Positions 57,836 to 58,020 of a stretch of DNA of 64,000 nt are shown here, in pieces. The translations under genes were made by a program, and so were the position numbers. The stretch is taken from the NCBI RefSeq assembly GCF_044647545.1, contig NZ_CP172818.1; one strand, 5' to 3'. Each line of letters starts with the position of its first letter. Within the stretch, counting starts at the first letter, position 1. The stretch comes from Escherichia coli. GTDB lineage: Bacteria; Pseudomonadota; Gammaproteobacteria; Enterobacterales; Enterobacteriaceae. Under the pieces are notes generated by a model that did no database searches, was not told where the DNA came from, and was given only the letters and a program-made list of their open reading frames with translations.

Positions 57836-58020
57836 ACAAAACAGAGAAGAACACCTGCGGCGGCAGCCGCCCGGATGGATTGGGTTATGAGCCCGTCGTC
57901 CGGTGATGCTCTTCTCTGTTTTGTAAAAAGGACGGTACCAGCCTGAAGCAAGGGTACAAACTGGTACCGCCAGGACTACACACAGCATAAAGTTGTGGTG
58001 CCGGGTGCCTCCCGGTGCCT
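57836..58020. other. GC-rich structured non-coding segment (nested inverted repeats; candidate ncRNA or recombination remnant)
   Basis: 15-bp perfect inverted repeat acaaaacagagaaga (57836-57850) / tcttctctgttttgt (57910-57924) enclosing a 59-nt GC-rich loop; second 9-bp stem cggtaccag (57933-57941) / ctggtaccg (57961-57969); tandem 10-mers ccgggtgcct/cccggtgcct (58001-58020); only Arg-rich low-plausibility ORFs. Confidence 0.4.

What the first reader, a model, noticed from the sequence alone, without database searches (positions are those of the whole stretch)
57836..58020. GC-rich, highly structured non-coding segment between xisE and ymfI
This segment is visibly GC-rich in an otherwise AT-rich prophage. 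A 15-bp perfect inverted repeat encloses a 59-nt GC-rich loop, followed by a second 9-bp perfect stem and a tandem 10-mer duplication. The only ORFs across it (57785..58105 and 57885..58112, minus strand) are Arg-rich with composition typical of translating GC-rich non-coding DNA. Candidate explanations are a structured ncRNA, a recombination site, or a remnant of an inserted element. No reverse transcriptase or other partner gene is adjacent, so I do not call it a retron.
Basis: seen in the sequence. Interest (0 to 1): 0.5.

Follow-up and report, generated by a model that had tools for sequence, protein, structure and literature searches.

The report
Prophage leader RNA mis-annotated as ymfH
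The GC-rich stretch between xisE and ymfI is not a gene remnant but a conserved, folded non-coding RNA cassette on the minus strand, made of a knotted RNA domain, a DicF-like small RNA with a terminator, and a tRNA-like hairpin; databases annotate it as the protein YmfH.

Summary
The stems belong to a roughly 330-nt minus-strand RNA cassette (58148 to 57798). It lies in the leader of xisE-intE, inside the leftward early operon of an e14/SfV-type prophage.

The cassette has three modules:
- **A (58115-57992):** a 124-nt multi-helix domain with a pseudoknot that covaries heavily. It is a sub-threshold relative of Rfam STnc100/PasD. The same domain sits unannotated between dicF and dicB in E. coli K-12 Qin.
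- **B (about 57991-57925):** a DicF-like small-RNA module that ends in an intrinsic terminator.
- **C (57924-57836):** It is the outer stem of a three-way junction, and one arm carries 14 nt identical to the initiator-tRNA anticodon arm.

The most likely function, which is inferred and not shown, is a terminated leader RNA or small-RNA precursor that also insulates xis-int. The role of the pseudoknot domain is unknown. I rate it a new variant of known kinds, of moderate interest.

The parts
58116..58148 (-). 5' flanking hairpin (GCUAAGUAUUUUC...GAGAAUCCUUAGC) directly upstream of the core.
   Evidence: Inverted repeat I3, 13 nt, 85% complementary. ST64B has a hairpin of unrelated sequence at the same place. 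Its presence argues that the RNA starts further upstream.
57992..58115 (-). Module A, the 124-nt pseudoknotted core. Helices: P1 58107-58115 with 57992-58000; P2 58091-58104; P3 58084-58089 with 58040-58045; P4 (pseudoknot) 58076-58082 with 58025-58031; P5 58036-58039 with 58019-58022; P6 58001-58015.
   Evidence: - Rfam STnc100 scores 39.5 bits, E 9e-7, below the gathering score of 47.
- My model R1 scores 94.1 bits, E 1e-19.
- P1, P2 and P6 are 98.7% paired, against 26-50% when partners are slid, and 5 pairs change on both sides.
- P4 has 12 distinct versions averaging 7.2 Watson-Crick pairs, against 4.3 in shuffles. P4 is also present in the late-operon type.
57925..57991 (-). Module B, a DicF-like small-RNA module: the conserved single strand GCUGUGUGUAGUC, the terminator stem 57933-57969, and a U5 tract at 57925-57929.
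   Evidence: - The stem I4 and the sequence are; the fold is -27.7 kcal/mol.
- The Rfam DicF match is weak on its own (15.7 bits). It is bridged by intermediates scoring 38-41 bits that share AUUGCUGUGUGUAGUC-UGGCGGUACCAG.
- ST64B and phiES15 carry different terminators at the same place.
57836..57924 (-). Module C, a three-way-junction hairpin. Arm A has the tip GGG-CUCAUAA-CCC (57882-57894). Arm B is GCGGC-UGCC-GCCGC.
   Evidence: - MFE is -54.7 kcal/mol, z = -8.6.
- The outer stem carries a compensatory G-C to A-U change relative to ST64B, and arm B covaries (GCUGU/ACAGC; GCGUUGU/GCAACGC).
- 14 nt (CGGGCTCATAACCC) are identical to the E. coli metZ initiator-tRNA anticodon arm.
- ARAGORN calls no tRNA here.
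57798..57835 (-). Linker GGAGAAAC plus the small hairpin AUCGGCCUUGCAGGGUCGAU. This is the end of the module shared with SfV-type phages, just before the xisE ribosome-binding site.
   Evidence: The megablast boundary falls at query position 36, which is window 57798. The fold is and the alignment with SfV.
57785..58105 (-). ymfH-like ORF of 106 aa, with an overlapping 75-aa ORF at 57885-58112. I judge both spurious.
   Evidence: - Variable sites fall 22:18:26 across codon positions in 28 close homologs.
- The 106-aa ORF is truncated in 5 of those 28.
- The K-12 ymfH ORF is not the same intact frame, and strain 0H24 is annotated as frameshifted.
- A 1-nt indel in ST64B breaks the 75-aa ORF (sequence).
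- SfV has no CDS annotated here.
58922..58951 (-). PL-like promoter TTGACA-17-ATAATG with repeated ATGTACC operator-like motifs, just after the cohE terminator. It is the probable source of the leftward transcripts that cross the cassette.
   Evidence: The sequence is. The same promoter is present in SfV and in NCTC9112, where it lies about 270 nt upstream of the core with no ORF in between. This is a reading of the sequence; the simple promoter scan was not run over this stretch.
57517..57762 (-). xisE, the first gene downstream of the cassette, followed by intE at 56409-57536.
   Evidence: ORF list and the K-12 annotation of the homologous locus.

Best explanation
The segment is the centre of a non-coding RNA cassette transcribed leftward (minus strand). 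It sits in the leader of xisE-intE, within the early-left operon of an e14/SfV-type lambdoid prophage.

**Shown here**
- A 124-nt domain with six helices, one of them a pseudoknot, is conserved by covariation across many enterobacterial temperate phages.
- That domain shares its architecture and a 22-nt invariant stretch with the STnc100/PasD prophage small RNAs.
- The same domain lies between dicF and dicB in K-12 Qin.
- It is followed by a DicF-like module with an intrinsic terminator, and then by a three-way-junction hairpin.
- The ymfH ORFs are not conserved as coding sequence.

**Inferred mechanism**
1. Transcripts from the CohE-controlled PL-like promoter fold into the domain and mostly stop at the terminator (3' end near 57925).
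2. This releases an RNA of about 190-225 nt. By analogy with PasD and with the 190-nt and 53-nt DicF species, it would bind Hfq and be trimmed by RNase E to a DicF-like RNA of about 65-70 nt that acts in trans.
3. The same terminator keeps xis-int silent until read-through occurs on induction.
4. Read-through mRNA carries the long hairpin, a plausible RNase III or translation-control site in the xisE 5' UTR.

What the pseudoknot domain itself binds or does is not known.
For: - **Family and strand.** Rfam STnc100 matches on the minus strand in the window, SfV, ST64B, phiES15, a Klebsiella phage and Qin, at 29-41 bits with E values down to 9e-7. The 22-mer CACCGGGAGGCACCCGGCACCA recurs in at least 120 viral contigs forming 29 sequence clusters. 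Model R1 scores 94 bits on the window, 103.5 bits on the Qin dicF-dicB spacer and 38.9 bits on a late-operon member.
- **Structure.** P1, P2 and P6 covary. The P4 pseudoknot covaries in both subfamilies. U-G pairs in P1 fit only the minus strand.
- **Position.** The element always lies after the cI-like repressor and before the early-left genes.
- **Terminator.** A GC stem followed by U5 exists on the minus strand only. Non-homologous terminators sit at the same spot in ST64B and phiES15.
- **DicF link.**
- **Relatives are real small RNAs.** PasD was shown by Northern blot and Hfq RIL-seq (PMC8550237). DicF is processed from a polycistronic transcript (bioRxiv 10.1101/2023.04.14.536235).
- **Co-regulation.** In K-12, intE-xisE-ymfH is treated as one operon, and the YmfT iModulon gene list also includes ymfJ (PMC12133099).
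- **Non-coding.**
Against: - There is no expression, 3'-end or Hfq data for this locus.
- Both Rfam matches are below their gathering scores (STnc100 39.5 against 47; DicF 15.7 against 48).
- The promoter scan found nothing inside 57500-58400, and it did not call the terminator because its loop is 19 nt.
- Folding energies of the two strands are nearly equal (-128.9 against -122.0 kcal/mol).
- Module order differs between phages. In Qin the DicF terminator comes before the domain. In about half of the early-left representatives the domain is followed directly by a ribosome-binding site and ATG with no terminator. So "domain plus seed plus terminator equals one small RNA" is not universal.
- No complementary target for the conserved GCUGUGUGUAGUC was found in the window.
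Confidence: 0.6

Rival explanations
1. The pseudoknot domain is a cis-acting regulatory leader, not part of a trans-acting small RNA. It would be an RNA that modifies RNA polymerase (processive antitermination, like HK022 put or Bacillus EAR), or a sensor that binds a factor or ligand. Either way it would gate expression of the operon that follows.
For: - It always sits at the head of long operons and in their orientation: early-left genes, or late genes just after a Q-like gene.
- The genes that follow are often host-killing: dicB, kil, holin.
- In about half of the early-left members it lies 10-40 nt upstream of a ribosome-binding site with no terminator.
- In K28 and phiES15 a terminator sits between the domain and the start codon, so read-through is obligatory.
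- Invariant loops plus a pseudoknot are more typical of ligand- or protein-binding RNAs than of Hfq small RNAs.
- The late-operon form is associated with three unrelated Q-like families.
Against: - There is no similarity to put; HK022 has no copy.
- SfV and ST64B each carry one copy, not one per early operon.
- In Qin the domain lies downstream of the DicF terminator.
- No alternative pairing is conserved above chance; local partners for the P4 strand average 3.65 against 3.66 in shuffles.
- Late-operon relatives accumulate as discrete Hfq-bound small RNAs.
Confidence: 0.2
2. The stems act at the DNA level, as a recombination, cruciform or protein-binding site. Alternatively the segment is the decayed remnant of a tRNA gene or attP arm carried along by module exchange.
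For: - Inverted repeats are preserved on both strands, and the two strands fold about equally well.
- 14 nt are identical to the tRNA-fMet anticodon arm.
- In L039 the same three-way junction directly follows tRNA-Asn and tRNA-Arg genes.
- Sharp mosaic boundaries fall at 57798 and at about 58190.
Against: - G-U wobble pairs and the pseudoknot have no DNA-level rationale.
- The U tract after the terminator stem is strand-specific.
- The element is 3-5 kb from the att sites in SfV.
- Arms A and B keep their shape through compensatory changes instead of decaying.
Confidence: 0.08
3. It encodes the small Arg-rich protein YmfH, as RefSeq annotates.
For: - A 106-aa ORF and a 75-aa ORF are open.
- RefSeq calls the homolog "protein YmfH" or "hypothetical protein".
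- A ymfH overexpression clone triggers the retron-Sen2 toxin RcaT (bioRxiv 10.1101/2020.06.22.160242).
Against: - There is no excess of third-position changes (22:18:26).
- Close relatives carry truncations and frameshifts.
- The ORFs are broken in ST64B.
- SfV has no CDS annotated here.
- The sequence is instead constrained by covarying RNA helices.
- The clone that triggers the retron also expresses the RNA in sense orientation.
Confidence: 0.04
4. It is the P4/P1-type immunity RNA system (CI/C4-like) reported for SfV as "transcription-termination-mediated immunity".
For: - SfV carries a 99% identical copy.
- The element is a structured RNA plus a terminator in an early operon.
- Roberts et al. 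2007 is cited for non-coding-RNA-mediated superinfection immunity (PMC3475682).
Against: - SfV has bona fide isrK (64 bits) and C4 (82 bits) RNAs inside orf37, which GenBank labels "immunity region", in the rightward operon. That is the P4-like system.
- The window has no C4 or isrK match.
- I could not read the 2007 paper, so its mapping is inferred.
Confidence: 0.06

Closest known systems
Rfam RF02076 STnc100 and the PasD1/PasD2 small RNAs (prophage-encoded, Hfq-associated)
   Same: - The closing helix UGGUG.../...CACCA and the junction AAU.
- An identical 22-nt 3' segment that includes the CCGGG-AGGCA-CCCGG hairpin.
- The pseudoknot between the strand after P2 and the loop of P5.
- A variable stretch followed by an intrinsic terminator, for a total of about 200 nt.
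   Different: - The score is below the Rfam gathering threshold.
- P2 is replaced (UGCG-GCUCAG-CGCA in place of CCCCC-UGUGCGG-AGGGG), and an extra P3 helix encloses the insert.
- It lies in the early-left operon after the repressor, not after a Q-like gene and before lysis genes.
- It lacks the conserved TTGAC...GTTAAAA promoter of the late-operon copies.
DicF sRNA and the dicBF operon of Qin (E. coli K-12)
   Same: - The same kind of operon: immediate-early left, under a CI-like repressor.
- The same pseudoknot domain is present in the dicF-dicB spacer (103.5 bits).
- The window's terminator module shares UGGCGGUA(C/U)CAGUUU and a U tract with DicF, and is linked to it by intermediates.
[quoted passage not shown]
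   Different: - The module order is swapped: domain then small RNA here; small RNA then domain in Qin.
- The seed differs (GCUGUGUGUAGUC against UUUCUGGUGACGU).
- The DicF model score is only 15.7 bits.
- The downstream gene is xisE, not dicB.
Lambda PL leader (nutL plus an RNase III hairpin before N), and the lambda 6S and Stx-phage StxS terminated PR' leaders
   Same: A structured leader at the head of a phage operon, a long hairpin just upstream of the first gene, and a short terminated leader RNA that can double as a small RNA. This comparison rests on established knowledge and was not tested here.
   Different: There is no boxA/boxB and no N or Nun homolog. The domain is far more elaborate and includes a pseudoknot.
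HK022 put and Bacillus EAR processive-antitermination RNAs
   Same: Conserved structured RNA at the start of long phage or operon transcripts that contain terminators. EAR is also pseudoknotted.
   Different: There is no sequence or structure match. HK022 lacks the element. There is one copy per phage. Antitermination activity is untested.
Initiator tRNA-fMet anticodon arm, and tRNA-mimic operators such as the thrS leader
   Same: Arm A of the long hairpin carries GGG-CUCAUAA-CCC, that is three G-C pairs plus the CAU loop. 14 nt are identical to metZ.
   Different: It is not a tRNA. The rest of the arm does not match. Its function is unknown. The motif is mutated in the K-12 e14 copy.

Membership tests
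Rfam RF02076 STnc100 | Score at or above the curated gathering threshold (47 bits). | tested here: not met
   39.5 bits, E 9.3e-7, over the full model 1-206, on the minus strand 58137-57922. The match is absent from the gathering-mode scan.
Rfam RF02076 STnc100 | Closing helix, UGGUGAAU, and the 3' hairpin CACCGGGAGGCACCCGGCACCA. | tested here: met
   The 22-mer and UGGUGAAU are identical. The helices covary.
Rfam RF02076 STnc100 | Pseudoknot between the strand after P2 and the P5 loop. This is my inference and is not in the Rfam structure. | tested here: met
   - Early-left type: mean 7.2 Watson-Crick pairs, 12 versions, against 4.3 in shuffles.
- Late type: mean 6.1, 18 versions, against 4.1.
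Rfam RF02076 STnc100 | Genomic position after a Q-like antiterminator gene and before lysis or structural genes. | tested here: not met
   Canonical copies follow Q-like genes (PHROGs 304, 127, 753) and precede holin or terminase genes. The window copy lies between the cohE/ymfJ side and xisE.
Rfam RF02076 STnc100 | Expressed, Hfq-associated small RNA. | not testable with these tools
   This is shown only for relatives: PasD by Northern blot and RIL-seq.
Rfam RF00039 DicF | Score at or above the gathering threshold (48 bits). | tested here: not met
   15.7 bits, E 2.6, at 57930-57984. K-12 DicF scores 76.7 bits. The intermediates score 38.1 and 41.1 bits.
Rfam RF00039 DicF | Shared terminator 5' arm and U tract, and a position in the repressor-controlled early-left operon next to the pseudoknot domain. 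| tested here: met
   Alignment A5. Qin has dicF, then the domain, then dicB.
HK022 put-type antiterminator RNA | A two-stem RNA of about 70 nt, related in sequence to putL/putR, with a copy downstream of both PL and PR. | tested here: not met
   HK022 gives no match by Rfam, motif search or R1. SfV and ST64B each carry a single copy.
Retron (msr-msd) | An adjacent reverse transcriptase gene. | tested here: not met
   There is no RT-like ORF within 55500-60500. The neighbours are lit, intE, xisE, ymfI, ymfJ and cohE.
C4 / P4 CI / IsrK immunity RNAs | A match to Rfam C4 (RF01695) or isrK (RF01394). | tested here: not met
   The window has none. In SfV and ST64B they lie in the rightward operon.
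tRNA gene | A cloverleaf detectable by ARAGORN. | tested here: not met
   0 genes in 57600-58300. Only the 14-nt anticodon-arm identity is present.
Protein-coding gene (ymfH) | A reading frame conserved among homologs, with substitutions concentrated at third codon positions. | tested here: not met
   Variable sites fall 22:18:26. 5 of 28 homologs are truncated, and the frame is broken in K-12, 0H24 and ST64B.

The most novel reading that the evidence does not exclude
The invariant, pseudoknotted 124-nt domain may be a previously unrecognised class of cis-acting regulatory RNA. It would bind RNA polymerase, a host or phage factor, or a small ligand, and gate the host-killing operons of enterobacterial temperate phages: xis-int, kil and dicB on the left, and holin and lysis on the right. 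In this reading the adjacent three-way junction acts as an initiator-tRNA anticodon-arm mimic, for example as a decoy or operator for a factor that recognises tRNA-fMet. The STnc100, PasD and "YmfH" annotations would then be by-products of this device.
Probability: 0.15. Interest if true: 0.85.

Novelty: new variant of a known kind. Interest (0 to 1): 0.55.

Why it matters
- **Annotation.** It re-assigns an E. coli K-12 "y-gene" (ymfH) and thousands of "hypothetical protein" calls to a structured RNA. The segment has a match in 2,784 of 5,426 complete E. coli genomes.
- **Linking three features.** It ties together features that have been treated separately: the STnc100/PasD small RNAs, DicF, and the unannotated dicB leader. 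All three contain or adjoin one conserved pseudoknot domain.
- **A testable target.** It gives a concrete RNA to test for control of prophage excision (xis-int) and of toxic early and late genes.
- **An open question.** The tRNA-fMet-like arm is an unexplained conserved motif and is worth a direct experiment.

Tried and rejected
1. **SfV immunity RNA.** I suspected this was the SfV "transcription-termination-mediated immunity" RNA. The paper is not held. SfV's isrK and C4 RNAs lie in orf37, the "immunity region", so I rejected the idea with a caveat.
2. **HK022 put homology.** None was found.
3. **A promoter just upstream of the core.** My hand-picked AAGACA-17-TATTTT conflicts with the conserved 5' hairpin. 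The scan found no promoter, so the start site is unresolved.
4. **A riboswitch-like two-state switch.** I tested whether the P4 strand has a conserved local alternative partner. It is no better than chance, 3.65 against 3.66.
5. **A trans target for GCUGUGUGUAGUC in the window.** Only the sequence itself matches.
6. **RNAduplex scan with automatic anchors.** It was mis-registered and uninformative, so I replaced it with alignment-anchored helix counts.
7. **Kissing pair.** I considered pairing between the terminator loop (57940-57948) and 58173-58181 (I6). SfV breaks it with a C-U mismatch, so I did not pursue it.
8. **RNase III site downstream of DicF.** My recollection of this was wrong. The literature places the site upstream.
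9. **tRNA gene.** ARAGORN was negative.
10. **Strand choice by thermodynamics.** It was not decisive.

Full report
**Context**

The window carries an e14-like prophage in an E. coli-type chromosome; the rne 5' UTR and SraB lie at its start. The local genes are:

| Gene | Coordinates | Strand |
|---|---|---|
| lit | 55425-56318 | + |
| intE | 56409-57536 | - |
| xisE | 57517-57762 | - |
| ymfI-like | start near 58229, ends 58570 | + |
| ymfJ | 58508-58816 | - |
| cohE (cI-like) | 58991-59665 | - |

The 466-bp gap between xisE and ymfI holds the finding. K-12 annotates the homologous stretch as the CDS ymfH.

**Checking the observation**

All the listed features are present. The 15-bp perfect inverted repeat with its 59-nt spacer is the only perfect inverted repeat of at least 12 bp in the 64-kb window; shuffles give 0.3 of at least 12 bp and none of at least 15 bp. 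The region folds far better than shuffles: z = -5.5 on the minus strand, -4.2 on the plus strand, and -8.6 for the long hairpin alone.

**Which strand, and what family**

An E-value-mode Rfam scan places a full-length match to STnc100 (RF02076) on the minus strand, 58137 to 57922. It scores 39.5 bits with E 9e-7, below the gathering score of 47.
- Comparable sub-threshold matches occur in the same orientation in SfV, ST64B, phiES15, a Klebsiella phage and K-12 e14.

According to the literature, STnc100 and the related PasD RNAs are prophage small RNAs of unknown function. They usually lie near Q and the lysis genes (bioRxiv 10.64898/2026.05.13.724894; PMC12370729). PasD is a verified Hfq-dependent small RNA (PMC8550237).

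**Distribution and position**

The segment has a match in 2,784 of 5,426 complete E. coli genomes, at up to 5 places per genome, and in many phages. SfV is 99% identical over 57798-58193.

In every annotated case it sits in a 0.5-0.8-kb gap of the leftward early operon. That gap lies after the cI-like repressor, sometimes with one small ORF in between, and before the first early-left genes: yfdP-like genes, kil, or xis. A PL-like promoter with operator-like repeats follows the cohE terminator in the window. In strain NCTC9112 that promoter is only about 270 nt upstream of the element, with no ORF between them.

**Module A, the core**

Scanning viral contigs for the invariant 22-mer and for the early-left-specific 15-mer gave more than 200 loci. 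They form 29 and 35 sequence clusters respectively; some clusters in the second set are chance matches.

There are two architectures:
- **Late-operon type (canonical STnc100).** It lies directly after Q-like genes of three different PHROG families and before holin, terminase or baseplate genes.
- **Early-left type.** The window belongs here.

Both share P1, the junction AAU, the P6 hairpin, and a pseudoknot (P4) between the strand after P2/P3 and the loop of P5.

| Test | Observed | Control |
|---|---|---|
| P1, P2, P6 cells paired (17 early-left representatives) | 98.7% | 26-50% with partners slid |
| Pairs changed on both sides (P1, P2, P6) | 5 | - |
| P4, early-left type | 12 versions, mean 7.2 Watson-Crick pairs | 4.3 in shuffles |
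| P4, late type | 18 versions, mean 6.1 | 4.1 in shuffles |

U-G pairs in P1 fit only the minus strand.

A covariance model built from the early-left set (R1) scores as follows:

| Target | Bits |
|---|---|
| Window | 94 |
| A late-operon member (L039) | 38.9 |
| HK022 | no match |
| SfV, ST64B | one copy each |

**Link to DicF and Qin**

One early-left subtype turned out to be the dicF-dicB region. In K-12 MG1655, R1 scores 103.5 bits (E 6e-23) at 1,649,454-1,649,581. This lies exactly between dicF and dicB and is unannotated.

Conversely, the window's stretch between the core and the U tract is DicF-like. It shares UGGCGGUACCAGUUU and the U tract with DicF. It is also linked by intermediate forms scoring 38-41 bits on the DicF model, which carry the same GCUGUGUGUAGUC "seed" as the window.

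DicF is known to arise from the polycistronic dicBp transcript as a 190-nt species (RNase III) and a 53-nt species (RNase E). That study says nothing about the dicF-dicB spacer (bioRxiv 10.1101/2023.04.14.536235).

The two loci therefore hold the same two modules in opposite order:
- **Window:** core, then DicF-like RNA with terminator, then hairpin, then xisE.
- **Qin:** 5' domain with DicF and its terminator, then core, then dicB.

**Module C, the long hairpin**

It folds as a three-way junction.
- ST64B, at 77% identity, keeps the shape. Its outer stem has a G-C to A-U compensatory change, and arm B has a different sequence.
- A third, sequence-unrelated version follows the terminator in another phage (K27).
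- The tip of arm A, CGGGCUCAUAACCC, is identical over 14 nt to the anticodon arm of E. coli initiator tRNA. It is conserved in ST64B with one loop change.
- In contig L039 the junction follows tRNA-Asn and tRNA-Arg genes downstream of a late-type core.
- ARAGORN calls no tRNA in the window segment.
- I cannot tell whether this is a functional mimic or a tRNA-derived relic.

**Coding test**

- Among 28 close homologs, variable sites fall 22:18:26 across codon positions.
- The 106-aa ORF is truncated in 5 of those 28.
- The K-12 and 0H24 versions are frame-broken relative to the window.
- ST64B breaks the 75-aa ORF with a 1-nt indel.
- SfV annotates no CDS here.

The K-12 e14 copy also carries lesions in the most conserved RNA positions: a deletion in the P6 loop, a stem mismatch, and CUCAUAA changed to UUAAUAA. 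It scores lower on R1, 77 against 94 bits. This is what I would expect of a decaying copy in a defective prophage.

**Mechanism**

The following are shown:
- the element is a conserved structured RNA on the minus strand;
- it is homologous to STnc100/PasD and to the dicB leader;
- it carries a strand-specific terminator;
- it always sits at the same position in the operon.

The following are inferred:
- leftward transcripts terminate at 57925 to give a long RNA, which matures like DicF and acts with Hfq;
- the terminator shields xis-int until induction;
- the long hairpin is a processing or translation-control site.

The rival reading is that the core is a cis-acting antitermination or sensor RNA. 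It remains open. What favours it is the core's position ahead of host-killing genes and the terminator-free 5' UTR arrangement in half of the members. What weakens it is the lack of any conserved alternative pairing, the single copy per phage, and the reversed module order in Qin.

**Novelty**

The families it resembles are known, but neither match reaches its family threshold. The papers I could search did not report any of the following: the pseudoknot, the presence of the core in the early-left operon and in the dicF-dicB spacer, the identity of ymfH as this RNA, or the tRNA-fMet-like arm. I rate it a new variant of known kinds, with moderate interest.

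Noticed in passing
L243 2955-3082 (E. coli K-12 NC_000913 1,649,454-1,649,581): The same pseudoknot domain lies unannotated between dicF and dicB in the Qin prophage. It scores 103.5 bits on R1, and its closing helix is about 20 bp long.
   Followed up: partly
window 58148-58219: A block of about 70 bp is shared at 93-97% identity with Klebsiella phages and at about 80% with an Aeromonas phage. It contains the inverted repeat CCACCGAGCCTGAAGTGGTG. It reads as a plus-strand promoter for ymfI (TTCACC-16-TGgTATGCT), yet a related block also sits at the 5' edge of the non-coding cassette in Qin-type loci that have no divergent gene. 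Its role is unclear.
   Followed up: partly
window 58875-58905 (minus strand): The leader sequence AACAGGCAGGACGCCCACGAAGUAGCC directly follows the PL-like promoter. It is conserved in SfV and ST64B and, with a few substitutions, in an IMG/VR contig. It could be a nut-like or other leader signal.
   Followed up: no
L240 27603-27791 (SfV), L241/L005 (ST64B), L003, L007: An isrK and C4 antisense-RNA pair, well above the Rfam thresholds, lies inside the rightward-operon ORF that GenBank labels "immunity region" (SfV orf37). It is probably the P4-like immunity system of these phages. The window's prophage lacks it.
   Followed up: partly
L001 4229-4351 (K-12 e14) compared with window 57992-58115 and 57882-57894: The K-12 e14 copy has mutations at otherwise invariant RNA positions: an A deleted from the P6 loop, a G-to-A change in the stem, and the anticodon-like loop changed from CUCAUAA to UUAAUAA. 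This suggests decay in the defective prophage.
   Followed up: yes
L015 4004-4133 and 4346-4471; L112 7345 and 7855; L022, L059, L009: Some phage contigs carry two copies of the domain in tandem, 220-510 nt apart. The late type copies each have their own conserved upstream TTGAC...GTTAAAA region.
   Followed up: no
L039 2075-2320: In a late-operon context, a variant of the three-way-junction hairpin with the same GGGCUCAUAAUCC arm sits directly after tRNA-Asn and tRNA-Arg(UCU) genes, about 450 nt downstream of an STnc100-type core.
   Followed up: partly
literature (bioRxiv 10.1101/2020.06.22.160242): Overexpression of the K-12 "ymfH" clone triggers the retron-Sen2 RcaT toxin. Because the ORF is probably spurious, the active agent may be the structured RNA.
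   Followed up: no
window 55425-56318: An intact Lit-like peptidase gene (motif HHEISH) lies next to intE, as in e14. It is a phage-exclusion gene inside this prophage.
   Followed up: no
window 1106-1442 and 3303-3471: The rne 5' UTR element and the SraB sRNA score above the Rfam thresholds. They place the window in the rne-to-icd region of an Escherichia-type chromosome.
   Followed up: no
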